Positions 1 to 64,000 of a stretch of DNA of 64,000 bases are shown here, in pieces; positions within the stretch are counted from its first letter, which is position 1; each line of letters opens with the position of its first letter. The stretch lies in assembly GCF_964355755.1 (NCBI RefSeq), contig NC_092680.1:13463045-13527044 (forward strand). Direction: 5' to 3'. Under the pieces are notes generated by a model. That model was not told where the DNA came from, did not search any database, and was given only the letters and a program-made list of their open reading frames with translations. The DNA comes from Antedon mediterranea. Lineage: Eukaryota; Animalia; Echinodermata. Position numbers and translations under genes: made by a program.

Positions 1-146
1 TGCACTTCTACACATAGAGGTTAATCTTCTGACAAAGTTATACGATGTAATGTTGATCAGAATTTGAGATACACGTGACACAAAATTTTGGGAAAGAAAG
101 AAGAATAACATAGAAAAAAAAAAAAAAGATCCTGACAATAACAAGA

Positions 147-171
147 GGTTATCCGCCAAGAGCGGATAACC
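147..171. other. Right-terminal hairpin / asymmetric TIR (representative copy; 5' end on the - strand)
   Basis: GGTTATCCGC-CAAGA-GCGGATAACC, a 10-bp perfect stem. Its distal arm is an inverted repeat of the GGTTATCCGC near the left end, as described for Helitron2 ATIRs / Helentron subTIRs. Confidence 0.85.
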
Positions 172-173
172 AA

Positions 174-215
174 CTAGATTTGAACTCGTCACTACGGACG
201 AGTTAGGTTATCCGC
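174..215 (-). other. Left-terminal signal (representative copy): subTIR + hairpin + CTAG, putative rolling-circle terminator
   Basis: On - it reads GCGGATAACC-T-AACTCGTC-CGTAGT-GACGAGTT-CAAAT-CTAG, i.e. an 8-bp stem just upstream of a CTRR end, like Helitron 3' ends. Confidence 0.8.
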
Positions 216-3200
216 AGTCCTAAAGCCACGTGCACGTCATACGTTGGAATATTGCGCGCAGAAAAACGATTCTGCCATTGAAAAAATGTGAGTGCGCTCT
301 CTATTTTGTGTCACGTCAAAGTGTATACGGTATACGCTATATACCGTATACGTACTACATACAGTTCAGAATAGGTGAAAATAAGTGACCAAAGTTATTG
401 ACGCTTTTGCACATGATGACGTCATAACAATTTTTAAAATGGTGAATCATGCGAAAGATAATTGATTGACATAGACAATATAAAGAAATGGAGGGCAATG
501 GAATACGGATAAGTGGAGATGCGCTCTATTAAATGTGATGAGCTATACGAAAGAGAAAAAAATCCTATATTTTATATTCGAGTGGCCATACGATGACGTC
601 ACAATGTCCTGATAGCCATATTGATACATGATTCGATATCTACAACTCATCTACTACCAGAATATGTAATTATAAAAAAGTTTACCACGTAGTTTAGAAT
701 CTATGACTGTTTAAAAAAAGGCATAATTTTGACAAATTTTTGGACTTTTTCATCAAAATTGCGCGCAAATTGTTTAATTCTACGTGCTCGTATGACGAGA
801 TTTTAAGGCAAAATTGATTGAAAATTGGTAAATATATTATAAAAGACAGAAAAAACAAAAATCAAGCAAAAAAAAGATGTTTTTGCGCTACGTGCGCACG
901 GGCGCGTAAAAAAAGTGCGCACGCGTGGGAATTTTTGAAATGCTCAAAATGACATGAAACGCGTAGAAAGTTGATTAGAAATTGATTTTTCGCAATTTGA
1001 AATTTTAAACGCGCGTGCGCGCGTAACTTTTTGTAAAACATGCCATTTTCTCTCCATAGAAAGTTAGCGCATAATATGACTTAAATTTTCACCAAGTTTC
1101 TATACAAAATGATTTTTAGTTTTTATTCTATGATCAATCATTGAAATTCATAAAATCGCGCGTAACTTACGCTGCGCGACTCAAAATTCATAAAAAAAAG
1201 TTTCTTGCACATCTACAGCTACAGGGCAATCTTTTCACAAAGTTATACAACTTTATGTTGGCCAGAATTAGAGATACGCAGCGAACAAAATTCGTGGAAA
1301 GAAAGAAGAATATAGAAAAAAAAAAAAAAGAAAAAAAAAAAAAAGATCCTGACAATAACAAGAGGTTATCCGCCAAGTGCGGATAACCAAAAAAAGAGAA
1401 CTAGATTTGAACTCGTCACTTCGGACAAGTTAGGTTATCCGCAGCGCAAATGCCACGTGCACGTCATACGTTGGAATATTGCGGGCAGAAAAACGATTAT
1501 GCCATTGAAAAAATGTTAGTGCGCTCTCTATTTTGCGTCACGTCAAAGTATATACGGTATACACTATATTCTGTATACGTACTACATACAGTGCAGAATA
1601 GGTGAAAATAAAAGACCCTAGTTATTGACGCTTTTGGACATGATGACGTCATCACAATTTAAAAAATGGTAGATTATGCGAAAGATAATTGATTGGCCTA
1701 GACAATTATAACAAAATGGGGGGAAATGGAATACGGATAAGTAGAGATGTGCTCTATTAAATGTGATGAGCTATGCGAAAGAGAGAAAAATCCTATATTT
1801 TATATTCGAGTGGCCATACGAAGACGTCACAATGTCCGAATAGCCATATCGATGCATGATTCGATATCTACAACTCATCAACTTCCAGAATGTGTAATTT
1901 AAAAAAAGTTCACCACGTAGTTTATAACCTATGACTTTAAAAAAAAAAGCATAATTTTCACGAATTGTTTAACTTTTTCATCAAAAACACGCGCAAATTG
2001 TTCAATTCTACGTGCTCGTATGACGTGATTTTAAGTCGAAATTGATTGAAAATTAGTAAATTTACTAGAAAAGGGTGGAAAAACAAAAATCAAGCAAAAA
2101 AAAGATGTTTTTGCGCTACGTGCGCACGCGCGCGAAAGAAAAGTGCGCACGCGTGGGAATTTTTGAAATGCTCAAAATGACATGAAACGCGTAGAAAGTT
2201 GATTAGAAATTGATTTTTTGCATTTTGAAATTTTAAACGCGCGTGCGCGCGTAACTTTCTTTAAAACATGCCATTTTCTCTCCATAGAAAGTTAGCGCAT
2301 GGTATGACTTAAATTTTCACCAAGTTTCAATACAAAATGACATATAGTTTTTATTCTATGATCAATCATTGAAATTCATAAAATCGCGCGTAACTTACGC
2401 TGCGCGACTCCAAATTCATAAAAAAAAGTTTCTTGCACATCTACAGCTACAGGGCGATTTTTTGACAAAGTTATACAATCATATGTTGGCCAGAATTAGA
2501 GATACGCTGCCAACAAAAAATGGGAGAGAAGTGTGTAAAGAAAGAAATAAATACTAGATTTGAACTCGTCACTACGGACGAGTTAGGTTATCCGCATCGA
2601 AAAATCCACGCGCACGCCACACGTCAGAATTTTGCGCGCAGAAAAACGATTATGCCATTGAAAAAAAATTTAGTGCGCTCTCTATTTTGCGTCACGTATA
2701 AGTATATACGGTATACGCTATATACTGTATAGGTACTACATACAGTGAAGAATATGTGAAAATAAGTGGCCCAAGTTATTGACGCTTTTGGACATGATGA
2801 CGTAATAAAAATTTCAAAAAATGGTAAATCATGCGAAAGATAATTGATTGACCTAGACAATACAAAAAAATGGAAGGCAATGGAATACGGATAAGTGGAG
2901 ATGCGCTCTATTAAATGTGACGAGCTACGAGGAAAGAGACAAAAATCCTATATTTTATATTCGAGTGGCCATACGATGACGTCGCAATGTCCGTTTAGCC
3001 ATATTGATGCATGATTTGATATCTGCAACTCATCTACTACCAGAATATGTAATTATAAAAAAGTTCACCACGTAGTTTAAAATCTATGACTGTTTAAAAA
3101 AAGGCATAATTTTGACAAATTTTTGAACTTTTTAATAAAAAATGCGCGTAAATTGTTTAATTCTACGTGCTCGCATGACGTGATTTTAAGTCGAAATTGT

Positions 3201-6200
3201 TTGAAAGTTTGTAAATTTACTAAAAAAAGACAGGAAAAACAAAAATCAAGCAAAAAAATGATATTTTTGCGCTACATGCGCACGCGCGCGTAAAAAAATT
3301 GCGCACGCGTGGGAATTTTTGAAATGCTCAAAATGACATGAAAGGCGTAGAAAGTTGATTAGAAATTGATTTTTCGCATTTTGAAATTTTAAAAGCGCGT
3401 GCGCGCGTAACTTTTTTGAAACAAGCCATTTTTAATCCAAAGAAAGTTTGCGCATTATATGACTTAAATTTTCACCAAGTTTCAATTAAAAACGACTTTT
3501 AGTTTTTATTCTATGATCAATCATTGAAATTCACAAAATCGCGCGTAACTTACGCTGCACAACTCGAAATTTGAAAAAAAAAGTTTCTTGCACATCTACA
3601 GCTACAGGGCAATATTTTGACAAAGTTATATAATCATTTGTTAGCCAGAATTAGAGATATGCTTGCAACAAAATTCGGGGAAAGAAAGAAGAAAATAGAA
3701 AAAAAAAGAGAAAAATAAAAAAAAATAACAAGAGGTTATCCGCCAAGTGCGGATAACCAAAAAGATCCTGACAATAACAAGAGGTTATCCGCCAAGTGCG
3801 GATAACCAACTAGATTTGAACTCGTCACTACGGACGAGTTAGGTTATCCGCAGCGCAAAAGCCACGTGCACGTCATACATTAGAATATTGCGCGCAAAAA
3901 AACGATAAAAATGTTAGTGCGCTCTCGATTTTGCGTCACGTCTAAGTATATACGGTATAACACTATATACTGTATACGTACTACATACAGTGCAGAATAG
4001 GTGAAAATAAGTGACCAAAGTTATTGACGCATTTGAACATGATGACGTCATCACAATTTTAAAAATGGTGAATCATGGGAAAGATAATTGATTGACCTAG
4101 ACAATAATAAAAAAAATGATGGAATTGGAACACGGATAAAGGAGATGCGCTCTATTAAATGTGACGAGCTATGACGAAAGAGAAAAAAATCCTATATTTC
4201 ATATTCGAGTGACCAAACGATGACGTCACAATGTCCGGTTAGCCATATCGATACATGATTCTACATCTACAACTCATCAACTTTCAGAATGTCTAATTTA
4301 AAAAAAGTTCACCTCGTAGTTTACAATCTATGACTGTTTTAAAAAAGACATAATTTTGACGAATTTTTGAACTTTTTCTTCAAAAACGCGCGCAAATTGT
4401 TCAATTCTACGTGCTCGTATGACGTGATTTTAAGTCGAAATTGATTGAAAATTGGTAAATTTACTAGAAAAGGCTGTAAAAACAAAAATCAAGCAAAAAA
4501 AAGATGTTTTTGCGCTACGTGCGCACGCGCGCGTAAAAAAAATGCGCACGCGTGGGAATTTTTGAAATTCTCAAAATGACCGGAAACGCGTAGAAAGTTG
4601 ATTAGAAATTGATTTTACGCATTTTGAAATTTTAAACGCGCGTGCGAGCGTAACTTTCTGTAAAACATGCCATTTTTAATCCATACAAAGTTTTCAGTTG
4701 ATATGACTTAAATTTTCACTAAGTTTCAAAACAAAATGAGTTCTAGTTTTTAATCTATGATCAATCATTGAAATTCATAAAATCGCACGTAACTTACGCT
4801 GCGCGACTCTAAAGTCAAAAAACGAAACGTCCTGCACATCTACAGCTACGGATCAATCTTATGACAAAGTTACACAATCTTATGTTCTCCAAAATTAGAG
4901 ATACGCTGCGAACAAAATTCCGGGAAAGAAAGAAGAATAAGATAGAAAAAAAAAAAAAAAGATCCTGACAATAACAAGGGGTTATCCGCCAAGTGCGGAT
5001 AACCAACTAGATTTGAACTCGTCACTACGGACGAGTTAGGTTATCCGCAGCGTAAAAGCCACGTGCACGTCATACGTTAGAATATTGCGCGCAGAAAAAC
5101 GATTATGGCATTGAAAAAATGTTAGTGCGCTCTCTATTTTGCGTCACGTCTGAGTATATACGGTATAACACTATATATTGTATACGTACTACATACAGTG
5201 CAGAATAGGTGAAAATAAGTGACCAAAGCTAATGACGTCTTTTGAACATGATGACGTCATCATAATTTTAAAAATGGTGAATCATGCGAAAGATAATTGA
5301 TTGACCTAGACAATAATAAAAAAATTGAGGGAATTGGAATACGGATAAAGGAGATGCGGTCTATTAAATGTGACGAGCTATGAGGAAAGAGTAAAAAATC
5401 CTATATTTCATATTCGAGTGGCCATACGATGACGTCATAATGTCCGGTTAGCCATATTGATGCATGATTTGATATCTGCAACTCATCTACTACCAGAATG
5501 TGTAATTTTAAAAAAGTAAACCACGTAGTTTACAATCTATGACTGTTTTAAAAAAGGCATAATTTTAACAAATTTTTTAACTTTTTCATCAAAAACGCGC
5601 GCAAATTGTTCAATTCTACGTACTCGTATGACGTGATTTTAAGTCGAAATTGATTGAAAATTGGTAAATTTACTATAAAAGGCTGAAAAAACTAAAATCA
5701 AGCAAAAAAAAAATGTTTTTGCGCTACGTGCGCACGCGCGCGTAAAAAAACTGCGCACGCGTGGGAATTTTTGAAATGCTCAAAATGACATGAAACGCTT
5801 AGAAAGTTGATTAGAAATTGATTTTTCGCATTTTGAAATTTTAAACGCGCGTGCACGCGTAACTTTTTGTGAAACATGCCATTTTTAATCCATAGAAAGT
5901 TTGCGCATGATATGACTTAAATTTTCACCAAGTTTCAATACAAAATGACTTTTGGTTTTTAATCTATGATCAATCATTGAAATTCATAAAATCGCGCGTA
6001 ACTTACGCTGCGCAACTCCGAAATCGTCCAAAAGCTTGGCTGCACATCTACAGCTATAGGTCAATCTTATGACAAAGTTATACAATCTTATGTTGGCCAG
6101 AATTAGAGATATGCGACCAACAAAATTCGTGGAAAGAAAGAAGAACATAGAAAAAAAAAAAAAAAAAAAAAAAAACTAGATTTGAACTCGTCACTACGGA

Positions 6201-8478
6201 CGAGTTAGGTTATCCGCCTCGCAAAACCCACGCGCATGACACCTAAGTTAGAATATTGCGCGCAGAAAAACGATTATGCCATTGAAAAAATGTTAGTGAG
6301 CCCTCTATTTTGTGTCGCGTCTAAGTGTGTACGGTATACACTATATACTGTATACGTACTACATACAGTGCAGAATAGGTGAAAATAAGTGACCAAAGTT
6401 ATTGACGCATTTGAACATGATGACGTCATCACAATTTTAAAAATGGTGAATCATGCGAAAGATAATTGATTGATCTAGACAATATAAAAAAATTGAGTAA
6501 AATGGAATACGGATAAGTGGAGATGCGCTCTATTAAATTTGACGAGCTATGACGAAAGAGAAAAAAATCCTATATTTTATATTCGGGTGGCCATACGATA
6601 ACGTAACAATGTCCGGTTAGCCATATCAATGCATGATTCAAGAAAAACAACTCATCTACTTCCAGAATATGTAATTTTAAAAAAGTTCACCACGTAGTTT
6701 AGAAGTTATGACTGTTTAAAAAAAGGTCTAATTTTGACGATTTTTTGAAGTTTTTCATCAAAAACACGCGCAAATTATCCAATTCTACGTGCTCGTGTGA
6801 CGTGATTATAAGTCGAAATTGATTGAAAATTTATAAATTTTCTAGAAAAGGCTGAAAAAATAAAAATCAAGCAAAAAAAAGATGTTTTTGCGCTACGTGC
6901 GCACGCGCGCGTAAAAAATTAGCGCACGCGTGGGAATTTTTGAAATGCTCAAAATGACATGAAACGCATAGAAAGTTGATTAGAAATTGATTTATCGCAT
7001 TTTGAAATTTTAAACGCGCGTGCGCGCGTAACTTTTTAAAACCATGCCATTTTTAATCCATAGAAAGTTAGCGCATGATATGACTTAAATTTTCACCAAG
7101 TTTCAATACAAAATGACTTTTGGTTTTTAATCTATGATCAATCATTGAAATTCATAAAATCGCGCGTAACTTACGCTGCGCGACTCGAAAATCAAAAAAC
7201 AAAGTTTCTTGCACATCTACAGATATAGGTCAATCTTATGACAAAGTTATACAATCATTTGTTAGCCAGAATTAGAGATATGCTTGCAACAAAATTCGTG
7301 GAAAGAAAGAAGAAAAAAGAAAAAAAAGAAAAAAAACTAGATTTGAACTCGTCACTACGGACGAGTTAGGTTATCCGCAGCGCAAAAGCCACGCACACGT
7401 CATACGTTAGAATATTGCAAGCAGAAAAACGATTATGCCATTGAAAAAAATGTTAGTGCGCCCTCTATTTTGCGTCGCGTCTAAGTATACGGTATAACAC
7501 TATGTACTGAATACGTACTACATACAGTGCAGAATAGGTGAAAATAAGTGACCAAAGTTATTAACGCTTTTGAACATGATGACGTCATCACAATTTTAAA
7601 AATGGTGAATCATGTGAAAGATAATTGATTGACCTAGACAATATATCATCATGGAGGGAAATGGAATACGGATAAGCGGAGATGCGCTCTATTAAATGTG
7701 ATGAGCTATGACGAATAAGAAAAAAATCCTATATTTTACATTCCAGTGGCCATACGATGACGTCACAATGTCCGGTTAGCCATATTGATGCATGATTTGA
7801 TATCTGCAACTCATCTACTACCAGAATATGTAATTATAAAAAAGTTCACCACGTAGTTTAGAATCTATGACTGTTTAAAAAAAGGAATATTTTTGACAAA
7901 TTTTTTAACTTTTTCATCAAAAATGCGCGCAAATTGTTTAATTCTACGTGCTCGTATGACGTGATTTTAAGTCGAAATTGATTGAAAATTGGTAAATTTA
8001 CTAGAAAAGGCTGAAAAAACAAAAATCAAGCAAAAAAAAGATGTTTTTACGCTACGTGCGCACGCGCGCGTAAAAAAATTGCGCACGCGTGGGAATTTTT
8101 GAAATGCTCAAAATAACATGAAACGCGTAGAAAGTTGATTAGAAATTGATTTTTCGCATTTTGAAATTTTAAACGCGTGTGCGCGCGTAACTTTTTGTGA
8201 AACATGCCATTTTTAATCCATAGAAAGTTTGCGCATTATATGAATTAAATTTTCACCAAGTTTCAATACAAAATGACGTTTGGTTTTTAATCTATGATCA
8301 ATCATTGAAATTCATAAAATCGCGCGTAACTTACGCTGCGCAACTCCGAAATCGTCCAAAAGCTTGGCTGCACATCTACAGCTATAGGTCAATCTTATGA
8401 CAAAGTTATACAATCTTATGTTGGCCAGAATTAGAGATATGCGACCAACAAAATTCGTGGAAAGAAAGAAGAACATAG

Positions 8479-8510
<32 letters not shown>

Positions 8511-11500
8511 TCCTGACAATAACAAGGGGTTATCCGCCAAGTGCGGATAACCAAAAAAAGATCCTGACAATAACAAGGGGTTATCCGCCAAGTGCGGATA
8601 ACCAACTAGATTTGAACTCGTCACTACGGACGAGTTAGGTTATCCGCAGTCCTATAGCCACGTGCACGTCATACGTTGGAATATTGCGCGCAGAAAAACG
8701 ATTATGCCATTGAAAAAATGTGAGTGCGCTCTCTATTTTGTGTCACGTCAAGTGTATACGGTATACACTATATACCGTATACGTACTACATACAGTTCAG
8801 AATAGGTGAAAATAAGTGACCAAAGTTATTGACGCTTTTGCACATGATGACGTCATAACAATTTTTAAAATGGTCAATCATGCGAAAGATAATTGATTGA
8901 TATAGACAATATAAAGAAATTGAGGGCAATGGAATACGGATAAGTGGAGATGCGCTCTATTAAATGTGATGAGCTATACGAAAGAGAAAAAAATCCTATA
9001 TTTTATATTCGAGTGGCCATACGATGACGTCACAATGTCCTGATAGCCATATTGATACATGATTCGATATCTACAACTCATCTACTACCAGAATATGTAA
9101 TTATAAAAAAGTTTACCACGTAGTTTAGAATCTATGACTGTTTAAAAAAAGGCATAATTTTGACAAATTTTTGGACTTTTTCATCAAAATTGCGCGCAAA
9201 TTGTTTAATTCTACGTGCTCGTATGACGAGATTTTAAGGCAAAATTGATTGAAAATTGGTAAATATATTATAAAAGACAGAAAAAACAAAAATCAAGCAA
9301 AAAAAAGATGTTTTTGCGCTACGTGCGCACGCGCGCGTAAAAAAATTGCGCAAGCCTGGGAATTTTTGAAATGCTCAAAATGATATGAAACGCGTAGAAA
9401 ATTGATTAGAAGTTGATTTTTTGCATTTTGAAATTTTAAACGCGCGTGCGCGCGTAACTTTCTGTGAAACATGCAATTTTTAATCCATAGAAAGTTTGCG
9501 CTTGATATGACTTAAATTTTCACAAAGTTTCAATACAAAATAACTTTCGGTTTTTAATCTATGATCAATCATTTAAATTCATAAAATCGCGCGTAACTTA
9601 CGCTGCGCAACTCAAAATTCATAAAAAAAAGTTTCTTGCACATCTACAGCAACAGGGCAATCTTTTGACAAAGTTATACAATCATATGTTGGCCAGAGTT
9701 AGAGATACGCTGCGAACAAAATTCGTGGAAAGAAAGAAGAACATAGAAAAAAAAAAAAAAGAAAAAAAAAAAGATCCTGACAATAACAAGAGGTTATCCG
9801 CCAAGTGCGGATAACCAACTAGATTTGAACTCGTCACTACGGACGAGTTAGGTTATCCGCCTCGCAAAACCCACGCGCATGACACCTAAGTTAGAATATT
9901 GCGCGCAGAAAAACGATTATGCCATTGAAAAAATGTTAGTGAGCCCTCTATTTTGTGTCGCGTCTAAGTGTGTACGGTATACACTATATACTGTATACGT
10001 ACTGCATACAGTGCAGAATAGGTGAAAATAAGTGACCAAAGTTATTGACACATTTGAACATGATGACGTCATCACAATTTTAAAAATGGTGAATCATGCG
10101 AAAGATAATTGATTGATCTAGACAATATAAAAAAATTGAGTGAAATGGAATACGGATAAGTGGAGATGCGCTCTATTAAATTTGACGAGCTATGACGAAA
10201 GAGAAAAAAATCCTATATTTTATATTCGGGTGGCCATACGATGACGTCACAATGTCCGGTTAGCCATATCAATGCATGATTCGAGAAAAACAACTCATCT
10301 ACTTCCAGAATATGTAATTTTAAAAAAGTTCACCACGTAGTTTAGAAGTTATGACAGTTTAAAAAAAGGTCTAATTTTGACGATTTTTTGAAGTTTTTCA
10401 TCAAAAACACGCGCAAATTATCCAATTCTACGTGCTCGTGTGACGTGATTATAAGTCGAAATTGATTGAAAATTTATAAATTTACTAGAAAAGGCTGAAA
10501 AAATAAAAATCAAGCAAAAAAAAGATGTTTTTGCGCTACGTGCGCACGCGCGCGTAAAAAATTTGCGCACGCCTGGTAATTTTTGAAATGCTCAAAATGA
10601 CATGAAACGCATAGAAAGTTGATTAGAAATTGATTTATCGCATTTTGAAATTTTAAACGCGCGTGCGCGCGTAACTTTTTAAAACCATGCCATTTTTAAT
10701 CCATAGAAAGTTTGCGCATGATATGACTTAATTTTTCACCAAGTTTCAATACAAAATGACTTTTGGTTTTTAATCTATGATCAATCATTGAAATTCATAA
10801 AATCGAGCGTAACTTACGCTGCGCGACTCGAAAATCAAAAAACAAAGTTTCTTGCACATCTACAGATATAGTTCAATCTTATGACAAAGTTATACAATCA
10901 TTTGTTAGCCAGAATTAGAGATATGCTTGCAACAAAATTCGTGGAAAGAAAGAAGAAAAAAGAAACTAGATTTGAACTCGTCACTACGGACGAGTTAGGT
11001 TATCCGTAGCGCAAAAGCCACGCGCATGACACATAAGTTAGAATATTGCGCGCAGAAAAACGATTATGCCATTGAAAAAAATGTTAGTGAGCCCTCTATT
11101 CTGTGCCACGTCTGAGTATATACGGTATACACTATATATTGTATACGTACTACATACAGTGAAGAATATGTGAAAATAAGTGGCCCAAGTTATTGACGCT
11201 TTTGGACATGATGAAGTCATCACAATTTTAAAAACGGTATATCATGCGAAAGATAATTGATTGGCATAGACAATATAAAAAAATGGGGGGAAATGGAATT
11301 TGGATAAGTGGAGATGCGCTCTATTAAATGTGATGAGCTATGACGAAAGAGACAAAAATCCTATATTTTATATTTGAGTGGCCATACGATGACTTCACTA
11401 TGTCCTGTTAGCCATATCGATGCATGATTCGATATCTACAACTCATCAACTTCCAGAATATGTAATTTAAAAGAAGTTCACCTCGTAGTTTACAATCTAT

Positions 11501-12113
11501 GACTGTTTTAAAAAAGGCATAATTTTGACGAATTTTTCAACTTTTTCTTCAAAAACGCGCCAAATTGTTCAATTCTACGTGCTCGTATGACGTGATTTTA
11601 AGTCGAAATTGATTGAAAATTGGTAAATTTACTAGAAAAGGCTGAAAAAACAAAAATCAGGCAAAAAAAACATGTTTTTGCTCTACGTGCGCACGCGCGC
11701 GTAAAAAAAAGGCGCACGCGTGAGAATTTTTGAAATGCTCAAAATGCCCTGAAACGCGTAGAAAGTTGATTAGAAATGGATATTTCGCAATTTGAAATTT
11801 TAAACGCGCGTGCGCGCGTAACTTTATGTCAAACATGCCATTTTTAATCCATAGAAAGTTTTCCCTTGATATGACTTAAATGTTCACCAAGTGTCATTAC
11901 AAAATGACGTTTGGTTTTCAGTCTATGTTAAATACGCGAAATTCATAAAATCGCGCGTAGCTTACGCTGCGCGACTCTAAAGAAAAAAAACGAGCTGTCC
12001 TGCACTTCTACAGATAGAGGTAAATCTTCTGACAAAGTTATACGATGTAATGTTGATCAGAATTTGAGATACACGTGACACAAAATTTTGGGAAAGAAAG
12101 AAGAATAACATAG

Positions 12114-12144
<31 letters not shown>

Positions 12145-15100: not shown

Positions 15101-16279
15101 ATCTTCAAGAATATGTAATTTTAAAAAAGTTCACCACGTAGTTTACAATCTATGACTGTTTTAAAAAAGGCATAATTTTGACGAATTTTTTACCTTTTTC
15201 ATCAAAAACGCGCGCAAATTGTTCAATTCTACGTGCTCGTATGACGTGATTTTAAGTCGAAATTGATTGAAAATTGGTAAATTTACTAGAAAAAGCTGAG
15301 AAAACAAAAATCAAGCAAAAAAAAGATGTTTTTGCGCTAAGTGCGCACGCGCGCGTAAAAAAACTGCGCACGCGTGGGAATTTTTGAAATGCTCAAACTG
15401 ACCTGAAACGCGTAGAAAGTTGTTTAGAAATTGATTTTACGCATTTTGAAATTTTAAACGCTCGTGCGCGCGTAACTTTTTATGAAACATGCCATTTTTA
15501 ATCCATAGAAAGTTTGCGCATGATATGACTTAAATTTTCACTAAGTTTCAATGCAAAATGACTTTTGGTTTTTAATCTATGATCAATCATTGAAATTCAT
15601 AAAATCGCGCGTAACTTACGCTGCGCTACTCCGTAATCGTCCAAAAGCTTGGCTGCACATCTACAGCTATAGGTCAATCTTATGACAAAGTTATACAATC
15701 TTATGTGGGCCAGAAGATAGAGATACGCTGTGGACAAAATTCTGGGAAAGAAAGAAGAATAAGATAGAAGAAAAAAAAAAAAAAGATCCTGACAATAACA
15801 AGAGGTTATCCGCCAAGTGCGGATAACCAACTAGATTTGAACTCGTCACTACGGACGAGTTAGGTTATCCGCAGCGCAAACGCCACGCGCACGTCATACG
15901 TTAGAATATTGCGCGCAGAAAAATGATTATGCCATCCATTGAAAAAATGTTAATGCGCTCTCTACTTTTATGGTGAAAGTGTGGTGAATTGTGTCTGGGC
16001 CTACAGCATTTATGTTACTTTTGGCGACGATTGCGTGCCATATTAGTAAAGAACAACGTGGTTACACCTCCATGTTGGATTTGTAATATTATAGCCTAGT
16101 ATTGCTCCCGATATTGCTTTGCAATTTTATATTGTTAAAACGAACATATAGCCTATATTAAAAAAGTTTAAACACAATTGTGTTAAATATAATAGTTAGA
16201 AATAGGTAAGATATATTTTGATTAATTTGGATTGTTAATTTGTAATATTTAATTGTTTTTGTGTTTGCCATCAAAATGA

Positions 16280-16625: not shown

Positions 16626-16784
16626 TTTTAGTTGTATAAGTTCCTAAAGAGTTGGAAGAGATACATGTACAGTAATAACATTATTGTTTCTACAGTACTT
16701 CATAATCTCTAGAATATCGTAAATAGTGAACATAAAATAAATAATTTGTAGAGATGATTTATGGTCTCATGATTGGGAGTGCAG

Positions 16785-21819: not shown

Positions 21820-21868
21820 TCTATTATCTATCTATCTATCTAAATCTATCTATCTTTCTATTATCTAT
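21820..21868. repeat. Imperfect (CTAT)n microsatellite
   Basis: ctattatctatctatctatctaaatctatctatct. Confidence 0.7.
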
Positions 21869-49100: not shown

Positions 49101-49355
49101 CGAGCTATGTTAAATACGACAAAATCGTTAAATCGCGCGTAAGTCACGTTGCGCAATTGTAAACGTCATGAAAAGCTTCGCTTGACGACGTTACGTAAAT
49201 GTCAATATGTTAAGATAGTTACCAAAATGTTATGTTTGCGAGTTTTGGAGAAAAGCGTTACACAAAAATCATACAGAAAGAAAGAAGAAAAATAAAAAGA
49301 TGATGATTTCGTACAATCACAAGAGGTTATCCTGCAACTTCGTTGCGGATAACCA
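40109..49355 (-). mobile_element. Block of six subfamily B non-autonomous Helentron units (~1.55-1.6 kb; one truncated)
   Basis: Left ends CTAGACATGTAACTCGTCACTTTGACGAGTTTGGTTATCCGC at 40109, 41633, 43236, 46161 and 47765; a left-truncated copy from ~44847. Right end GGTTATCCTGCAACTTCGTTGCGGATAACC preceded by (GAT)n. Carries an extra diverged copy of an internal module. Confidence 0.9.
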
Positions 49356-52300: not shown

Positions 52301-53176
52301 AAGTTCACCACGTAGTTTAGAAGTTATGACAGTTTAAAAAAAGGTCTAATTTTGACGATTTTTTGAAGTTTTTCATCAAAAACACGCGCAAATTATCCAA
52401 TTCTACGTGCTCGTGTGACGTGATTATAAGTCGAAATTGATTGAAAATTTATAAATTTACTAGAAAAGGCTGAAAAAATAAAAATCAAGCAAAAAAAAGA
52501 TGTTTTTGCGCTACGTGCGCACGCGCGCGTAAAAAAATTGCGCACGCGTGGGAATTTTTGAAATGCTCAAAATGACATGAAACGCATAGAAAGTTGATTA
52601 GAAATTGATTTATCGCATTTTGAAATTTTAAACGCGCGTGCGCGCGTAACTTTTTAAAACCATGCCATTTTTAATCCATAGAAAGTTTGCGCATGATATG
52701 ACTTAAATTTTCACCAAGTTTCAATACAAAATGACTTTTGGTTTTTAATCTATGATCAATCATTGAAATTCATAAAATCGAGCGTAACTTACGCTGCGCG
52801 ACTCGAAAATCAAAAAACAAAGTTTCTTGCACATCTACAGATATAGTTCAATCTTATGACAAAGTTATACAATCATTTGTTAGCCAGAATTAGAGATATG
52901 CTTGCAACAAAATTCGTGGAAAGAAAGAAGAAAAAAGAAAAAAAAGAAAAAAAATAAAAAAAAAAAGATCTATGATCAATCATTGAAATTCATAAAATCG
53001 CGCGTAACTTACGCTGCGCGACTCTAAAGTTAAAAAACGAAACGTCCTGCACATCTACAGCTAGAGGTCAATCTTATGACAAAGTTACACAATCTTATAT
53101 TGGCCAGAATTAGAGATACGCTGCGAACAAAATTCCGGGAAAGAAAGAAGAATAAGATAGAAAAAAAAAAAGAAAA
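49356..53176 (-). mobile_element. Orphan A right end, three subfamily A units and a ~210 bp unit fragment
   Basis: Orphan terminus at 49380-49423; left ends at 49426, 50647 and 51794; fragment 52968-53176 joined through an ATC microhomology. Confidence 0.85.
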
Positions 53177-54754
53177 CTAGATTTGAACTCGTCACTTTGA
53201 CGAGTTCGGGTTATCCGCGCAAACGCAACATGCACATACGTTTAAAATATATGAACGCCGATAATTATTATGCCATCCTATGACATGAATTAAATATGTT
53301 TACAGTGCTGAATTGTACCTATTTTGTAGCATACATCATATTACAGTGTTTACAGAATACACTGTATATGTTATATACAGTGAAGCATAGACGGAATTAC
53401 GAGACCCATCTTTTAAATCTAATTATTAACACGATGACATCATCAAATTGACATATAAAAATAACAATTTTAGAAGATAATTATCTAATTAATTACATTA
53501 ATACAAATTTGAAGAATTTTGGGCACGTAAAAGTGAGATGCGCTCTCGTTTAAACGCAATGAACTTTTACGCAAGAGGTGAAAATACGACTTTTTTTATT
53601 CAATTGGCCATATGATGACGTCACAACATCTGATTGGCAAAATGTTCACATGATTTCGTATCTACAATCCAATAGCTTCCAGAAAACGTTTTAATCATGA
53701 TTATCACTTTTTATTCAGACGAGCTATAACAGAGTAAAATTTACTGTAAAGATGAACATAAGTGACCCACGTTATTTACATTTTTAGACATGATGCCGTC
53801 ATAACAATTAACATATTTTTATCTCATGCGAAAGATAATTGATTGACGTAGACAATAATAAAATCTCGGGGGAAATGGAATTCGTATGAGCGAGATGCGC
53901 TTTGTTGAATGTGATGAGCAATAACGCAATAGACAAAAATCCTATATTTTATATTCGAGTGGCCATATGATGATGTCACAATGTCCAGTTAGCCATATTC
54001 ATGCATGATTTGATATCTACAACTCATCTACTTCCAGAATCTGAAATTTTAAAAATGTTCACCACGGAGTTTAGAATCTATGACAGTTTAAAAAAAGGCA
54101 TAATTTTGACAAATTTTTGAACTTTTTCATCAAAAATGCGCACAAATTGTTTAATTCTACGTGCTCGTATGACGTGATTTTAGGTCGAAATTGATTTAAA
54201 ATTGATAAATTTACTAGAAAAGGCTGAAAAAACAAAAATCAAGCAAAAAAAAGATGTTTTTGCGCTATGTGCGCACGCGCGCGTAAAAAAATTGCGCACT
54301 TGTGGGAATTTTTGAAATGCTCAAAATGACATGAAACGCATAGAAAGTTGATTAGAAATTGATTTTTCGCATTTTGAAATTTCAAACGCGCGTGCGCGCG
54401 TAACTTTTTGTTAAACATGCCATTTTTAATCCATAGAAAGTTTGCGCATGATATTACTTAAATTTTCACAAAGTTTCAATACAAAATAACTTTTGGTTTT
54501 TATTCTATGATCAATCATTGAAATTCATAAAATCGCGCGTAACTTACGCTGCGCAACTCTAAATTCATTAAAAAAAGTTTCTTGCACATCTACAGCTACA
54601 GGGCAATCTTTTGACAAAGTTAAACAATTTTATGTTAATCAGAATTAGAGATATGCCACCAACAAAATTCGGGGAAAGAAAGAAGAATAACATAGAAAAA
54701 AAAAAAAAAGATCCTGACAATAACAAGGGGTTATCCGCCAAGTGCGGATAACCA
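53177..54754 (-). mobile_element. Single subfamily C non-autonomous Helentron unit (~1.58 kb)
   Basis: Left end CTAGATTTGAACTCGTCACTTTGACGAGTTCGGGTTATCCGC, a divergent left part with the B-like extra module, and an A-type right half and terminus. Confidence 0.8.
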
Positions 54755-54755
54755 A

Positions 54756-57700
54756 CTAGATTTGAACTCGTCACTACGGACGAGTTAGGTTATCCGCAGT
54801 CCTAAAGCCACGTGCACGTCATACGTTGGAATATTGCGCGCAGAAAAACGATTATGCCATTGAAAAAATGTGAGTGCGCTCTCTATTTTGTGTCACGTCA
54901 AAGTGTATACGGTATACACTATATACCGTATACGTACTACATACAGTTCAGAATAGGTGAAAATAAGTGACCAAAGTTATTGAGGCTTTTGCACATGATG
55001 ACGTCATAACAATTTTTAAAATGGTGAATCATGCGAAAGATAATTGATTGACATAGGCAATATAAAGAAATGGAGGGCAATGGAATACGGATAAGTGGAG
55101 ATGCGCTCTATTAAATGTGATGAGCTATACGAAAGAGAAAAAAATCCTATATTTTATATTCGAGTGGCCATACGATGACGTCACAATGTCCTGATAGCCA
55201 TATTGATACATGATTCGATATCTACAACTCATCTACTACCAGAATATGTAAATATAAAAAAGTTTACGACGTAGTTTAGAATCTATGACTGTTTAAAAAA
55301 AGGCATAATTTTCACAAATTTTTGAACTTTTTCATCAAAATTGCGCGCAAATTGTTTAATTCTACGTGCTCGTATAACGAGATTTTAAGGCAAAATTGAT
55401 TGAAAATTGGTAAATATATTATAAAAGACAGAAAAAACAAAAATCAAGCAAAAAAAAGATGTTTTTGCGCTACGTGCGCACGGGCGCGTAAAAAAAGTGC
55501 GCACGCGTGGGAATTTTTGAAATGCCCAAAATGACATGAAACGCGTAGAAAGTTGATTAGAAATTGATTTTTCGCAATTTGAAATTTTAAACGCGCGTGC
55601 GCGCGTAACTTTTTGTAAAACATGCCATTTTCTCTCCATAGAAAGTTAGCGCATAATATGACTTAAATTTTCACCAAGTTTCTATACAAAATGACTTTTA
55701 GTTTTTATTCTATGATCAATCATTGAAATTCATAAAATCGCGCGTAACTTACGCTGCGCGACTCAAAATTCATAAAAAAAAGTTTCTTGCACATCTACAG
55801 CTACAGGGCAATCTTTTCACAAAGTTATACAACTTTATGTTGGCCAGAATTAGAGATACGCGACCAACAAAATTCGTGGAAAGAAAGAAGAATATAGAAA
55901 AAAAAAAAAAAGAAAAAAAAAAAAAAAGATCCTGACAATAACAAGAGGTTATCCGCCAAGTGCGGATAACCAAAAAAAACTAGATTTGAACTCGTCACTA
56001 CGGACGAGTTAGGTTATCCGCAGCGCAAAAGACACGTGCACCATACGTTAGAATATTGCGCGCAGAAATACGATTACACCATTGAAATAATGTTAGTGCG
56101 CTCTCAATTTTGCGTCACGTCAAAGTATATACGGTATACACTATATTCTGTATACGTACTACATACAGTGCAGAATAGGTGAAAATAAGGAACCAAAGTT
56201 ATTGACGCTTTTGGACATGATGACGTCATCACAATTTAAAAAATGGTAGATTTTGCGAAAGATAATTGATTGACCTAGACAATATAAAGAAATGGAGGGC
56301 AATGGAATACGGATAAGTGGAGATGCGCTCTATTAAATGTGATGAGCTATACGAAAGAGAAAAAATCCTTTATTTTATATTCGAGTGGCCATACGATGAC
56401 GTCACAATGTCCGGTTAGCCATATCGATGCATGATTCGATATCTACAACTCATTATCTTCCAGAATGTGTAATTTAAAAAAAGTTCTCCTCGTAGTTTAC
56501 AATCTATGACAGTTTTAAAAAAAGCATAATTTTCACGAATTTTTTAACTTTTTCATCAAAAACGCGCGCAAATTGTTCAATTCTACGTGCTCGTATGACG
56601 TGATTTTAAGTCGAAATTGATTGAAAATTGGTAAATTTACTAGAAAAGGGTGGAAAAACAAAAATCAAGCAAAAAAAAGATGTTTTTGCGCTACGTGCGC
56701 ACGCGCGCGTAAGAAAAGTGCGCACGCGTGGGAATTTTTGAAATGCTCAAAATGACATGAAACGCGTAGAAAGTTGATTAGAAATTGATTTTTCGCATTT
56801 TGAAATTTTAAACACGCGTGCGCGCGTAACTTTCTTTAAAACATGCCATTTTCTCTCCATAGAAAGTTAGCGCATGATATGACTTAAATTTTCACCAAGT
56901 TTCAATACAAAATGACATAAAGTTTTTATTCTATGATCAATCATTGAAATTCATAAAATCGCGCGTAACTTACGCTGCGCGACTCAAAATTCATAAAAAA
57001 AAGTTTCTTGCACATCTACAGCTACAGGGCAATCTTTTGACAAATTTATACAATCATATGTTGGCCAGAATTAGAGATACGCTGCCAACAAAAAATGGGA
57101 GAGAAGTGTGTAAAGAAAGAAATAAATACTAGATTTGAACTCGTCACTACGGACGAGTTAGGCTATCCGCAGCACGTCATACGTTAGAATATTGCGCGCA
57201 GAAAAACGATTATGCCATTGAAAAAATGTTAGTGCGCTCTCTATTTTGTGTCACCTCAAAGTATATACGGTATACACTATATTCTGTATACGTACTACAT
57301 ACAGTGCAGAATAGGTGAAAATAAGGGACCCAAGTTATTGACGCTTTTGGACATGATGACGTCATCACAATTTAAAAAATGGTATATTATGCGAAAGATA
57401 ATTGATTGGCATAGACAATATAAAAAAATGGGGGGAAATGGAATTCGGATAAGTGGAGATACGCTCTATTAAATGTGATGAGCTTTGACGAAAGAGACAA
57501 AAATCCTATATTTTATATTTGAGTGGCCATACGATGACGTCACTATGTCTTGTTAGCCATATCGATGCATGATTCGATATCTACAAATCATCAACTTCCA
57601 GAATGTGTAATTTAAAAGAAGTTCACCTCGTAGTTTACAATCTATGACTGTTTTAAAAAAGGCAAAATTTTGACGAATTTTTCAACTTTTTCTTCAAAAA

Positions 57701-58259
57701 CGCGCGCAAATTGTTGAATTCTACGTGCTCGTATGACGTGATTTTATGTCGAAATTGATTGAAAATTGGTAAATTTACTAGAAAAGGCTGAAAAAACAAA
57801 AATCAAGCAAAAAAAAGATATTTTTGCGCTACGTGTGCACGCGCGCGTAAAAAAAATGCGCACGCGTGGGAATTTTTGAAATGCTCAAAATGCCCTGAAA
57901 CGCGTAGAAAGTTGATTAGAAATGGATATTTCGCAATTTGAAATTTTAAACGCGCGTGCGCGCGTAACTTTATGTCAAACATGCCATTTTTAATCCATAG
58001 AAAGTTTGCCCTTGATATGACTTAAATGTTCACCAAATGTCATTACAAAATGACTTTTGGTTTTTAGTCTATGTTAAATACGCAAAATTCATAAAATCGC
58101 GCGTAGCTTACGCTGCGCGACTCTAAAGAAAAAAAACGAGCTGTCCTGCACTTCTACAGATAGAGGTAAATCTTCTGACAAAGTTATACGATGTAATGTT
58201 GATCAGAATTTGAGATACACGTGACACAAAATTTTGGGAAAGAAAGAAGAATAACATAG

Positions 58260-58290
<31 letters not shown>

Positions 58291-61200
58291 TCCTGACAAT
58301 AACAAGGGGTTATCCGCCAAGTGCGGATAACCAAAAAAAAAAAAAAACTAGATTTGAACTCGTCACTACGGACGAGTTAGGTTATCCGCAGCGCAAAGGC
58401 CACGTGCACGTCATACGTTAGAATATAGCGCGCAGAAAAACGATTATGCCATTGAGAAAATGTTAGCGCGCTCTCTATTTTGCTTCACGTCAAAGTGTAT
58501 ACGGTATACACTATATACTGTATACGTACTACGTACAGTTCAGAATAGGTGAAAATAAGTGACCAAAGTTATTGACGCTTTTGCACATGATGACGTCATA
58601 ACAATTTTTAAAATGGTGAATCATGTGAAAGATAATTGATTGACCTAGACAATATAAAGAAATGGAGGGCAATGGAATACGGATAAGTGGAGATGCGCTC
58701 TATTAAATGTGATGAGCTATACGAAAGAGAAAAAAATCCTATATTTTATATTCGAGTAGCCATACGATGACGTCACAATGTCCTGTTAGCCATATTGATA
58801 CATGATTCGATATCTACAACTCATCTACTACCAGAATATGTAATTATAAAAAGGTTCACCACGTAGTTTAGAATCTATGACTGTTTAAAAAAGGCATAAT
58901 TTTGACAAATTTTTAGACTTTTTCATCAAAATTGCGCGCAAATTGTTTAATTCTACGTGCTCGTATGACGAGATTTTAAGGCAAAATTGATTGAAAGTTG
59001 ATACATTTATTATAAAAGACAGAAAAAACAAAAATCAAGCAAAAAAAAGATGTTTTTGCGCTACGTGCGCACGTGCGCGTAAGAAAAGTGCGCAAGCGTG
59101 GGAATTTTTGAAATGCTCAAAATGACATGAAACGCGTAGAAAGTTGATTAGAAATTGATTTTTCGCATCTTGAAATTTTAAACGCGCGTGCGCGCGTAAC
59201 TTTTTGCGCAACCTGCCATATTTAATCTACAGAAAGTTTGCGCTTTATATGACTTAAATTTTCACCAAGTTTCAATACAAAATGACTTTTGGTTTTTAAT
59301 CTATGATCAATAATTGAAATTCATAAAATCGCGCGTAACTTACGCTGCGCGACTCGAAATTTGAAAAAAAAAGTTTCTTGCACATCTACAGATATAGGGC
59401 AATCTTTTGAAAAAGTTATACAATCTTCTGTTGGCTAGAATTAGAGATACGCTGCCCACAAAAAATGGGAGAGAAGTGTGGAAAGAAAGAAATAAATACT
59501 AGACTTGAACTCGTCACTTCGGACGAGTTAGGTTATCCGCAGCGCAAAGGCCACGTGCACGTCATACGTTAGAATATTGCGCGCAGAAAAACGATTATGC
59601 CATTGAAAAAATGTTAGTGCGCTCTCTATTTTGTGTCACGTCAAAGTATATACGGTATACGCTATATTCTGTATACGTACTACATACAGTGCAGAATATG
59701 TGAAAATAAGGGACCCAAGTTATTGACGCTTTTAGACATGATGACGTCATCACAACTTAAAAAATGGTAGATTATGCGAAAGATAATTGATTGGTCTAGA
59801 CAATATAACAAAATGGGGGGAAATGGAATACGGATAAGTGGAGATGCGCTCTATTAAATGTGATGCGCTATGACGAAAGAGACAAAAACCCTATATTTGA
59901 TATTCGAGTGGCCATACGATGACGTCACAATGTCCGGTTAGCCATATCGATGCATGATTTGATTTCTAAAACTCATCTACTTCCAGAATCTGAAATTTTA
60001 AAAAAGTTCACCACGGAGTTTAGAATCTATGACTGTTTTAAGAAAGGCATAATTTTGACAAATTTTTGAACTTTTTCATCAAAAACGCGTGCAAATTGTT
60101 CAATTCTACGTGCTCGTATGACGTGATTTTAAGTCGAAATTGATTGAAAATTGGTAAATTTACTAGAAAAAGCTGAAAAAACAAAAATCAAGCAAAAAAA
60201 AGATGTTTCTGCGCTACGTGCGCACGCGCGCGTAAAAAAATTGCGCATGCGTGGGAATTTTTGAAATGCTTAAAATGACCTGAAACGCGTAGAAAGTTGA
60301 TTAGAAATTGATTTTACGCATTTTGAAATTTTAAACGCGCGTGCGCGCGTAACTTTAAAAAAAAGTGCGATTTCCAATCCATAGAAAGTTAGCGCATGAT
60401 ATAAACTACACTTTTGCCAAGTTTCAATTAAAATTGCTTTTTGGTTTTTGATCTATGTTAAATACGCGAAAATCACAAAAACGCGCGTAACTTACGCTGC
60501 GCGACTATAAAGTCAAAAAACGAAACGTCCTGCACATCTACAGCTACAGGTCAATCTTATGAAAAAGTTACACAATCTTTTGTTTGCCAGAATTTGAGAT
60601 ACGCTGCCAACAAAATTCCGGGAAAGAAAGAAGAATAACATAGAAAAAAAAAAAAAAAAAAAAAAAAAAAGATCCTGACAATAACAAGGGGTTATCCGCC
60701 AAGTGCGGATAACCAACTAGATTTGAACTCGTCACTACGGACGAGTTAGGTTATCCGCAGTGCAAAAGCCACGTGCACGTCATATGTTAGAATATTGTGC
60801 GCTAAAAAAAAAATTATCGCATAGAAGAAATGTTAGTGAGCCCTCTATTTTGCGTCACGTCTAAGTATATACGGTATACGCTATATACTGTATACGTACT
60901 ACATACAGTGCAGAATAGGTGAAAATAAGTGACCAAAGTTAATGACGCTTTTGACCATGATGACGTCATAACAATCTTAAAAATTGTTAACCATGTGATA
61001 GATAATTGATTGACCTAGACAATATAAAAAAATTGAGGGAAATGGAATACGGATAAGTGGAGATGCGCTCTATTAAATGTGACGAGCTATGACGAAAGAG
61101 AAAAAAATCCTATATTTTTTATTCGAGTGGCCATACAATGACGTCATAATATTCAGTTAGCCATATTAATGCAAGATTCGATAAAGACAACTCATCTACT

Positions 61201-64000
61201 TCCAGAATATGTAATTTAAAAAATGTTCACCACGTAGTTTAGAATTTATGACTGTTTTAAGAAAGGCATAATTTTGACAAATTTTTGAACTTTTTCATCA
61301 AAAACGCGCGCAAATTGTTCAATTCTACGTGCTCGTATGACGTGATTTTAAGTCGAAATTGCTTTAAAATTGGTAAATTTACTAGAAAAGGCTGAAAAAA
61401 CAAAAATCAAGCAAAAAAAAGATGTTTCTGTGCTACGTGCGCACGCGCGCGTAAAAAAATTGCGCACGCGTGGGAATTTTTGAAACGCTCAAAATGACCT
61501 GAAACGCGTAGAAAGTTGAATAGAAATTGATTTTACGCATTTTGAAATTTTAAACGCGCGTGCGCGCGTAACTTTAGGGAAAAGTCTGATTTTCAATCCA
61601 TAGAAAGTTAGCGCATGATATAAATTACACTTTTGCCAAGTTTCAATAAAAATTGCTTTTTGGTTTTTGATCTATGTTAAATACGCAAAATTCACAAAAT
61701 CGCGCGTAACTTACGCTGCGCGACTATAAAGTCAAAAAACGAAACGTCCTGCACATCTACAGCTACAGGTCAATCTTATGAAAAAGTTACACAATCTTCT
61801 GGTTTCCAGAATTTGAGATACGCTGCCAACAAAATTCAGGGAAAGAAAGAAGAATAACATAGAAAAAAAAAAAAAAAAAAAAAAAAAAGATCCTGACAAT
61901 AACAAGGGGTTATCCGCCAAGTGCGGATAACCAACTAGATTTGAACTCGTCACTACGGACGAGTTAGGTTATCCGCAGCGCAAAGGCCACGCGCACGTCA
62001 TACGTTAAAATATTGCGCGCAGAAAAACGATTAAGTCATTGAAACAATTTCAGTGTGCTCTCTATTTTTCGTCACGTCAAAGTAACGGTATACGCTATAT
62101 TCTGTATACGTACTACATACAGTGCAGAATAGGTGAAAATAAAGGACCCAAGTTATTGACGCTTTTGACATGATGACGTTATCACAATTTAAAAAATGGT
62201 AGATTATGCGAAAGATAATTGATTGGCCTAGACAATATATCAAAATGGGGGGAAATGGAATACGGATAAGTGGAGATGCGCTCTATTAAATGTGATGAGC
62301 TATGACGAAAGAGACAAAAATCCTTTATTTGATATTCGTGTGGCCATACGATGATGTCACAATGTCCGGTTAGCCAAATTGATGCATGATTCGATATCTA
62401 CAACTCATCTACATTCAGAATATGTAATTTAAAAAAAGTTCACCACGTAGTTTAGAATCTATGACTGTTTAAAAAAAGGCATAATTTTGACAAATTTTTG
62501 AACTTTTTCATCAAAAATGCGCGTAAATTGTTTAATTCTACGTGCTCGTATGACGTGATTTTAAGTTGAAATTGTTTGAAAGTTGGTAAATTTACTAAAA
62601 AAAGACGGGAAAAACAAAAATCAAGCAAAAAAATGATGTTTTTGCGTTACGTGCGCACGCGCGCGTAAAAAAATTGCGCACGCGTAGGAATTTTTGAAAT
62701 GCTCAAAATGACATGAAACGCGTAGAAAGTTGATTAGAAATTGATTTTTTGCATTTTGAAATTTTAAACGCGCGTGCGCGCGTAACTTTCTGTAAAACAT
62801 GCTATTTTCTCTCCATAGAAAGTTAGCGCATGATATGACTTAAATTTTCACCAAGTTTCAATACAAAATGACATATAGTTTTTATTCTATGATCAATCAT
62901 TGAAATTCATAAAATCGCACGTAACTTACGCTGCGCGACTCAAAATTCATAAAAAAAAGTTTCTTGCACATCTACAGCTACAGGGCAATCTTTTGACAAA
63001 GTTATACAATCATATGTTGGCCAGAATTAAAGATACGCTGCCAACAAAAAATGGGAGAGAAGTGTGTAAAGAAAGAAATAAATACTAGATTTGAACTCGT
63101 CACTACGTACGAGTTAGGTTATCCGCAGCGCAAAGGCCACGTGCACGTCATACGTTAGAATATTGCGCGCAGAAAAACGATTATGCCATTTAAAAAATGT
63201 TAGTGCGCTCTCAATTTTGCGTCACGTCTGAGTATATACGGTATACACTATAACTGTATACGTACTACTTACAGTTCAGAATAGGTGAAAATAAGTGACC
63301 AAAGTTATTGACGCTTTTGCACATGATGACGTCATAACAATTTTTAAAATGGTGAATCATGCGAAAGATAATTGATTGACCTAGACAATATAAAGAAATG
63401 GAGGGCAATGGAATACGGATAAGTGGAGATGCGCTCTATTAAATGTGATGAGCTATACGAAAGAGAAAAAAATCCTATATTTTATATTCGAGTGGCCATA
63501 CGATGACGTCACAATGTCCTGTTAGCTACATCGATGCATGATTCGATATCTACAACTCATCAACTTTCAGAATGTGTAATTTTAAAAAAGTTCACCACGT
63601 AGTTTAGAATCTATGACTTTTTTTAAAAAGGCATAATTTTCACGAATTTTTTAACTTTTTCATCAAAAACGCGCGCAAATTATTCAATTCTACGTGCTCG
63701 TATGACGTGATTTTAAGTCGAAATTGATTGAAAATTGGTAAATTTACTAGAAAAGGGTGGAAAAACAAAAACCAAGCAAAAAAAAGATGTTTTTGCTCTA
63801 CGTGCGCACGCGCGCGTAAGAAAAGTGCGCACGCTTGGGAATTTTTGAAATGCTCAAAATGACCTGAAACGCGTAGAAAGTTGATTAGAAATTGATTTTT
63901 CGCATTTTGAAATTTTAAACGCGCGTGCGCGCGTAACTTTCTATAAAACATGCCATTTTCTCTCCATAGAAAGTTATCGCATGATATGACTTAAATTTTC
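54756..64000 (-). mobile_element. Subfamily A array continuing past the window end
   Basis: Left ends at 54756, 55980, 57129, 58348, 59499, 60717, 61935 and 63085. Confidence 0.9.

What the first reader, a model, noticed from the sequence alone, without database searches (positions are those of the whole stretch)
1..64000. Self-targeting Helentron system: an intact autonomous element inside a polarised array of its own non-autonomous subfamilies
Seen: 36 left termini, all in the same orientation, with no host DNA between units. Adjacent units are usually different variants, while near-identical twins lie far apart (6176/9819/51794; 12315/36454/38880; 2554/49426; 40109/47765). Junctions fall either exactly at the previous end (GATAACCAA|CTAG) or inside the terminal A-tract. 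Known: Helentrons insert into T-rich (TT) targets without a TSD and can seed satellite DNA. Inference: simple rolling-circle concatemerisation would give identical neighbours, so this looks like serial, oriented insertion of independent copies into a landing pad that each element carries. The result would be a self-extending locus, a candidate centromeric, subtelomeric or piRNA-cluster structure with its mobilising enzyme embedded.
Basis: partly seen in the sequence, partly recalled or inferred. Interest (0 to 1): 0.85.

Follow-up and report, generated by a model that had tools for sequence, protein, structure and literature searches.

The report
Helentron inside its self-nesting copy array
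An intact-looking rolling-circle transposon, probably of a feather star, sits in a 64-kb-plus pile of its own small non-coding relatives, all facing one way, which likely grew by copies landing next to or just behind each other's ends and then recombining; self-insertion is known for this class, but the many exact end-to-end joints between unlike copies are unusual.

Summary
In detail: 36 CTAG ends, all on one strand, no host DNA between units, and an 18.3-kb element with an unbroken 3047-aa Rep/helicase/endonuclease ORF joined exactly to units on both sides. It is a Helentron (HLE2) with HINE partners. Nested insertion without target duplication is shown: twins supply the empty sites (10966 inside 9819; B units inside 40109). 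A-type neighbours are no more alike than random (p 0.54), which excludes simple concatemers. Three points weaken 'independent, self-targeted insertions'. Units are recombinant mosaics and two dimers recur in order. Six B units form one block (p 1.4e-5). Also, 28 of 33 long A-tracts lie in unit tails, so ordinary poly-T preference can explain polarity and tail insertions. It does not explain the 16 exact joints; re-use of the CTAG|TT nick site is the interesting, untested remainder. Centromere, telomere or piRNA roles could not be tested (no genome held). Self-insertion and multi-head Helitron arrays are already published.

The parts
15831..34084 (-). Autonomous Helentron, 18,254 bp. Strand given by terminal structure: 5' head (TT, subTIR hairpin) at 34084, 3' CTAG end at 15831. 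Exact head-to-tail joints on both sides.
   Evidence: convention from PMC4067079 passages
22070..31213 (+). Single-exon 3047-aa ORF: Herpes_teg_N-like, OTU, DUF6570, Rep (HUH at about 1863, Tyr motif at 2047), Pif1 helicase, AP-type endonuclease; antisense to the termini
1..15830 (-). Left array: 13 A-type non-autonomous units of about 1.15-1.35 kb plus the end of a unit cut by the window edge
34085..40108 (-). Five A-type units; 37664 lies between twins 36454 and 38880 with exact joints on both sides
40109..49356 (-). Block of six B-type units (about 1.6 kb; 44847 lacks its CTAG end), flanked by A6 and by A-tract plus an orphan A-type head
49426..64000 (-). Right array: 11 A-type units (last one cut by the window edge), one intermediate unit (53177, 1.58 kb) and a 207-bp fragment after a deletion joint at about 52970
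9819..12260 (-). Clean nested insertion: unit 10966-12188 splits the tail of 9819; removing it restores the run pattern of twin 51794 exactly, with no target duplication
15831..15872 (+). Example CTAG end: CTAG, palindrome AACTCGTC/GACGAGTT, subTIR GGTTATCCGC
   Evidence: DNA fold -7.4 kcal/mol
15804..15830 (+). Example head: 10-bp hairpin GGTTATCCGC-N5-GCGGATAACC followed by AA
   Evidence: DNA fold -11.4 kcal/mol
16939..21046 (.). Internal tandem repeats of the autonomous element (periods 241 and 329; a 690-bp duplicate at 99%)

Best explanation
This is a Helentron family (one intact-looking autonomous copy plus about 36 non-coding HINE copies) whose array likely grew by copies inserting, without target duplication, into the T-rich tail behind another copy's 5' head or at an existing end-to-end joint, and was likely reshaped afterwards by multi-unit copying, recombination and deletion. 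Shown: terminal anatomy, polarity, the ORF, two to three nested insertions, mosaic units. Inferred: (1) Rep nicks at the TT head and ends at the CTAG palindrome, as for other HLE2 elements; (2) poly-T preference sends copies to the tails, which hold the longest T-runs and all on one strand, giving polarity; (3) insertion at CTAG^TT yields two exact joints, so exact joints perpetuate themselves; (4) read-through past an end carries headless bodies and whole blocks (the B block, the six GAAATAAATA joints) and leaves spare heads elsewhere; (5) unequal exchange or conversion makes the half-twins.
For: Empty-site test: 9819 ends G-A3; after 10966 comes A7-G-A8-T-A11-GATC; removing the insert with its two terminal A gives A8-G-A8-T-A11, the pattern of twin 51794. 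The 14-nt remnant after the head at 46144 occurs only there and in the tail of 47765, the twin of headless 40109 (one A short if two A are assigned to the insert). The remnant after 174 occurs otherwise only in 2554/49426 tails. Five orphan heads (3807, 8603, 12258, 12312, 49423). Whole-unit twin matches start at or 1-2 nt before CTAG for 2554/49426 and 9819/51794; for 6 of 8 whole twin pairs neither neighbour pair is related. No junction lies in 43.3 kb of unit bodies or 17 kb of autonomous interior. Neighbour identity 89.28% against 89.35 +/- 0.37 shuffled, p 0.54. 28 of 33 A-runs of 10 or more are in tails; T-runs of 9 or more occur only in the autonomous interior. A headless joint (15769 to 15829) is present in contigs of 3 of 4 runs laid, from three studies.
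Against: 13 headless joints against only 5 orphan heads, so brackets do not close within the window. 8606-9819 and 50647-51794 match across the joint, yet only 8606 has a head, so some 'tail insertions' may be head deletions. Order-preserved dimers: 2 observed, p 0.03 at one threshold and 0.12 at another. Linkage decays along the unit (r2 0.197 to 0.074; Spearman -0.126, 0 of 1000 permutations as low), so recombination is substantial. No transposition activity is shown.
Confidence: 0.62

Rival explanations
1. Site-specific self-integration: the Rep recognises the subTIR or hairpin of a resident copy and joins an incoming circle at the CTAG|TT nick site by HUH strand exchange, so arrays are the designed target.
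For: 16 of 36 joints fall on one bond per unit that is not in a long run; the autonomous element and unit 37664 (between twins) have exact joints on both sides; several tail sites are in runs of only 5-9 A, of which bodies have many (P about 1e-9 for 14 of 14 in tails if runs of 6 or more are equal targets, 5e-5 for runs of 8 or more, assumes independence).
Against: Exact joints also arise from rolling-circle dimers and are copied by recombination. Some contigs carry 121-552 letters upstream of a CTAG end that do not lie on the stretch (3 of the 32 pieces shown, of 4817), which suggests solitary copies. Distances of tail sites from the head hairpin vary (about 21-45 nt by hand count), with no fixed spacing.
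Confidence: 0.2
2. Satellite-like evolution: a rolling-circle concatemer diverged and was then scrambled by unequal crossing-over, conversion and slippage, which gain and lose heads; true insertions are few.
For: Mosaic units (5 half-twin pairs at 2.5%, 11 at 3.5%), linkage decay, two order-preserved dimers, six identical variant joints, a microhomology deletion at about 52970.
Against: Slippage cannot put the twin's complex tail remnant behind an unrelated unit (9819/10966; 40109). Eight twin pairs match end to end, mostly with unrelated neighbours. No multi-unit A duplication of 96% or more in self-blast. Junction linkage overall r 0.08-0.10, p 0.16-0.24. An 18-kb element sits with exact joints inside.
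Confidence: 0.15
3. Assembly artefact or pure concatemer.
For: One unit pair is identical over 1520 columns; no read spans the array in the data seen.
Against: Median A-unit identity 89%, maximum between neighbours 92.5%; headless joints occur in contigs of other studies.
Confidence: 0.03

Closest known systems
Helentron / HINE / DINE-1 (Thomas, Vadnagara, Pritham 2014, PMC4067079; passages and section 6 read)
   Same: subTIR 2 nt from the 5' end and about 32-42 nt from the 3' end, 3' palindrome, inverted repeat at the 5' subTIR, T-rich target, no target modification, variable terminal T number, EN-bearing RepHel; ORF in minus orientation as in Helentron-Da-40.
   Different: Exact-match subTIR core is 10 bp, against 12-15 bp reported. 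The passages read describe dispersed copies, not a long polarised array of whole elements.
FoHeli Helitron2 elements of Fusarium oxysporum (Chellapan et al. 2016, PMC5148889; passages read)
   Same: Self-insertion, multiple short 5' termini with one 3' terminus, composite mobilisation, a copy inserted 2 bp from another, reversed ORF in FoHeli4/5, joined-end circles.
   Different: Single cases or short stacks there; more than 36 units with mixed variants here, and an endonuclease domain.
Centromeric Helitron tandem arrays of plants (Xiong, Dooner, Du 2016; not read, known from the review PMC12628747, passages) and TE dimers by site preference (McGurk and Barbash, same review)
   Same: Arrays of several to hundreds of units; dimers formed through insertion-site preference.
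   Different: Those arrays are ascribed to rolling-circle amplification of truncated HLE1 copies with many 5' ends and one 3' end; here 3' ends outnumber heads and neighbours are unlike.
Paramecium telomeric Helitrons (PMC13085455; passages read)
   Same: Helitrons with an absolute orientation bias, explained by a strand-specific target.
   Different: Their proposed target is the telomeric repeat and they form a separate clade; here the target is the element's own end region.
Self-inserting retroelements such as Zepp, DIRS-1 and HeT-A/TART (recalled, not checked by a call)
   Same: Polarised self-built clusters, some at centromeres or telomeres.
   Different: Retroelements; the chromosomal position of this array is unknown.

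Membership tests
Helentron (HLE2) | RepHel with HUH Rep and Pif1 helicase | tested here: met
   Helitron_like_N E 2.7e-36, PIF1 E 1.9e-29; motifs conserved against 5 homologues
Helentron (HLE2) | C-terminal AP-type endonuclease | tested here: met
   Exo_endo_phos E 1.4e-8 at 2837-3024
Helentron (HLE2) | HLE2 marker domains DUF6570, Herpes_teg_N (PMC11417382 passage) | tested here: met
   E 3.2e-20 and 6.9e-8
Helentron (HLE2) | Asymmetric subterminal inverted repeats with 3' palindrome | tested here: met
   exact core is 10 bp, shorter than the 12-15 bp reported
Helentron (HLE2) | Insertion into TT or T-rich target without duplication | tested here: met
   All 36 ends abut T on the element strand, 27 abut TT; empty-site reconstruction for 10966
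Helentron (HLE2) | Placement in the HLE2 clade on a tree | not tested
   No tree built; all listed near homologues share the same domain set
HINE partners of this element | Shared subTIRs and last 60 bp, no coding capacity | tested here: met
   A units share the terminal sequences with 15831/34084; no ORF of 150 aa or more in the arrays; B units share the subTIR but have other palindromes
Rolling-circle concatemer array | Adjacent units near-identical | tested here: not met
   0 of 25 adjacent A pairs related; maximum 92.5%; B neighbours 96.6-98.5%
Site-specific self-targeting element | Most genomic copies flanked by family members | tested here: inconclusive
   No genome held; short-read contigs show both multi-study joints and unlike flanks
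Centromeric, subtelomeric or piRNA-cluster array | Chromosomal position, CENP-A or small-RNA signal | not testable with these tools
   No genome; no raw-read run listed

The most novel reading that the evidence does not exclude
The Helentron Rep uses the joined CTAG|TT ends of resident copies as an attachment site and integrates circles of any family member, including the 18-kb autonomous element, by HUH strand exchange at its own nick site. The array would then be a self-extending, integron-like platform built by a eukaryotic rolling-circle transposon, a general route from Helentrons to mixed-variant satellites.
Probability: 0.22. Interest if true: 0.78.

Novelty: new variant of a known kind. 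Interest (0 to 1): 0.46.

Why it matters
How HLE2 elements integrate, and how transposons turn into satellites, are open questions. This locus offers an apparently intact enzyme, defined ends and natural empty sites in one place, so target choice (poly-T against end-to-end joint) becomes directly testable. If only poly-T preference is at work, it is a well-preserved example of known self-insertion.

Tried and rejected
No whole genome is held, so the genome-wide flank fraction could not be counted. The end motif gave 0 matches in metagenome contigs and viral contigs. 71 metagenome loci with distant RepHel or OTU relatives held no family termini (2 weak 44-52 nt body hits); 8 of the 71 were checked for self-repeats and none showed a comparable array, but most contigs end near the ORF. 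No RNA holder on record was listed: no evidence on expression. Depth (about 1e4-1e5 on unit sequence, tens on autonomous-only sequence) hints at a very high-copy family but is not a copy number. mis-cut unit 43236 (it included 44847), giving a false 100% neighbour; corrected to 96.55%, and the neighbour test was repeated. Circle integration by homologous recombination (reciprocal mosaics in neighbours): no clean case; best 10966/12315 against 36454/38880 at summed distance 0.04-0.05. A fixed spacing rule for tail sites, noted in earlier finding e1-9141695, was not seen by hand count. My first reading of the 2554 tail as a 37-nt insert was dropped for a 14-bp deletion plus orphan head. A maize Helitron paper recalled to report insertion near other Helitrons could not be fetched. 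The oyster HINE paper had no 'nested' or 'inserted' passage. No supplements were read; they may hold array examples.
Full report
Observation. A motif scan and blastn find 36 CTAG-type ends and 29 hairpin ends, all in one orientation. Outside 15983-32969 the window consists of family sequence only: 29 A units (about 1.2 kb, median identity 89%), 6 B units (about 1.6 kb, 96.6-100% to each other), one intermediate unit and fragments. The named twins are real.

Identity. The element at 15831-34084 carries one 3047-aa ORF without internal stop with Herpes_teg_N, OTU, DUF6570, Helitron Rep, Pif1 and endonuclease domains. Catalytic motifs match five homologues in alignment. The five best hits of 687 are named as proteins of the crinoid Antedon mediterranea, 81-92% identical in their best alignments, followed by sea urchin, mollusc and fish proteins, so the host is probably a feather star. 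The termini fit the Helentron/HINE plan in PMC4067079 (passages) if read on the minus strand: TT plus hairpinned subTIR is the 5' head, palindrome plus CTAG the 3' end. The ORF is therefore antisense to the termini, a known arrangement (Helentron-Da-40; FoHeli4/5). The autonomous 3' part is about 85-88% identical to complete A units, so they share its ends but are not fresh deletions of this copy. Activity is not shown.

Junctions. 16 of 36 are exact, 7 follow a head plus a short remnant, 7 cut a tail, and 6 are one repeated variant joint. None lies in unit bodies or in the autonomous interior.

Nesting is shown. Unit 10966 splits the tail of 9819: the runs before and after, less the insert's two terminal A, give exactly the tail of twin 51794. 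The remnant at 46147 is found only there and in the tail of 47765, the identical twin of headless 40109, one A short on the same count. The remnant after unit 174 belongs to the 2554/49426 tail type. Five orphan heads exist. Brackets do not close: 13 headless joints against 5 spare heads.

Not a simple concatemer. Consecutive A units average 89.28% against 89.35 +/- 0.37 in 20,000 shuffles (p 0.54), with a maximum of 92.5%; 0 of 25 directly adjacent pairs are relatives (0.8 expected). Order is random rather than over-dispersed. For 6 of 8 whole twin pairs neither flanking pair is related, and no multi-unit A duplication of 96% or more appears.

Not only independent insertions. Units are mosaics: 8606 is 174-like on the left and 50647-like on the right; 5 half-twin pairs at 2.5% distance; r2 falls from 0.197 to 0.074 with distance over 137 sites in 28 units. 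Two dimers recur in order (p 0.03 or 0.12 by threshold), though overall linkage across joints is weak (p 0.16-0.24). In one of these dimers only one copy has the head, so some tail joints may be deletions. The six B units are contiguous (p 1.4e-5) and are bounded by A-tract on both sides, which fits arrival as one 9.2-kb block or local copying.

Why polarised. HINEs prefer T-rich targets (PMC4067079 section 6). 28 of 33 A-runs of 10 or more lie in tails, and T-runs of 9 or more occur only inside the autonomous element. A liking for long T-runs thus predicts same-orientation tail insertion without any special system. It does not predict 16 exact joints, nor sites in short runs. Insertion at CTAG^TT would make two exact joints from one; 37664 between twins and the autonomous element itself look like this. 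Whether Rep prefers that site is the open point.

Outside the window. No genome is held. Contigs of 4 of the 12 listed runs were laid on 15300-16260. A headless joint appears in 3 of 4 runs (three studies, two organism codes; two studies if the best holder is the source), so such joints are not peculiar to this assembly. Three of the 32 pieces shown run on for 121-552 unlaid letters upstream of a CTAG end, which suggests solitary copies; their letters were not shown.

Known context. Self-insertion with multiple heads and composite mobilisation is described in Fusarium (PMC5148889, passages); plant Helitron arrays and site-preference dimers are reviewed in PMC12628747 (passages); strand-biased Helitrons occur in Paramecium (PMC13085455, passages). 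Eight searches (listings, plus passages of six papers) showed no report of a mixed-variant Helentron array with exact joints around an intact element, but subscription papers are not held. Earlier notes of this scan list 14 findings in at least 4 genomes under similar words (8 shown), which are unchecked but suggest self-nesting is common.

Verdict. Real and well preserved; a variant of known Helentron self-insertion. Interest 0.46; the site-specific reading has probability about 0.22.

Noticed in passing
window 16939-21046: Internal repeats of the autonomous element (periods 241 and 329; a 99% duplicate 16939-17629/18487-19174) repeat a short stretch bounded by splice-like signals upstream of the ORF; possibly duplicated 5' UTR exons.
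   Followed up: no
window 25736-25988: 54-bp coding repeat (basic, KY/RF-rich, 18 aa) inside the ORF, with similar repeats in homologues.
   Followed up: no
window 53177-54755: Intermediate unit: A-type CTAG start with B-like palindrome loop, 87% to A and 78% to B in best alignments, 86.6% to the autonomous 3' part.
   Followed up: partly
window 52970-53176: Deletion joint with 3-nt microhomology removes the head of 51794 and joins it to a 207-bp fragment 98.6% like the end of unit 35240.
   Followed up: partly
window 2553, 14622, 35239, 57128, 59498, 63084: Six units with different bodies end in one variant tail (GAAATAAATA) whose head is never seen in the window; either a hotspot or one old joint copied many times.
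   Followed up: partly
window 40485-40632 and 40840-40987: B units hold an internal duplicate of about 150 bp at 72% identity that A units hold once.
   Followed up: no
window 23690-24140: The Herpes_teg_N-like domain keeps a QCVANS motif conserved in all six aligned proteins, so the ORF may carry two cysteine-protease domains (this and OTU).
   Followed up: no
L012:14018-17814: About 950-bp direct repeat at 81% downstream of a distant RepHel in a metagenome contig.
   Followed up: no
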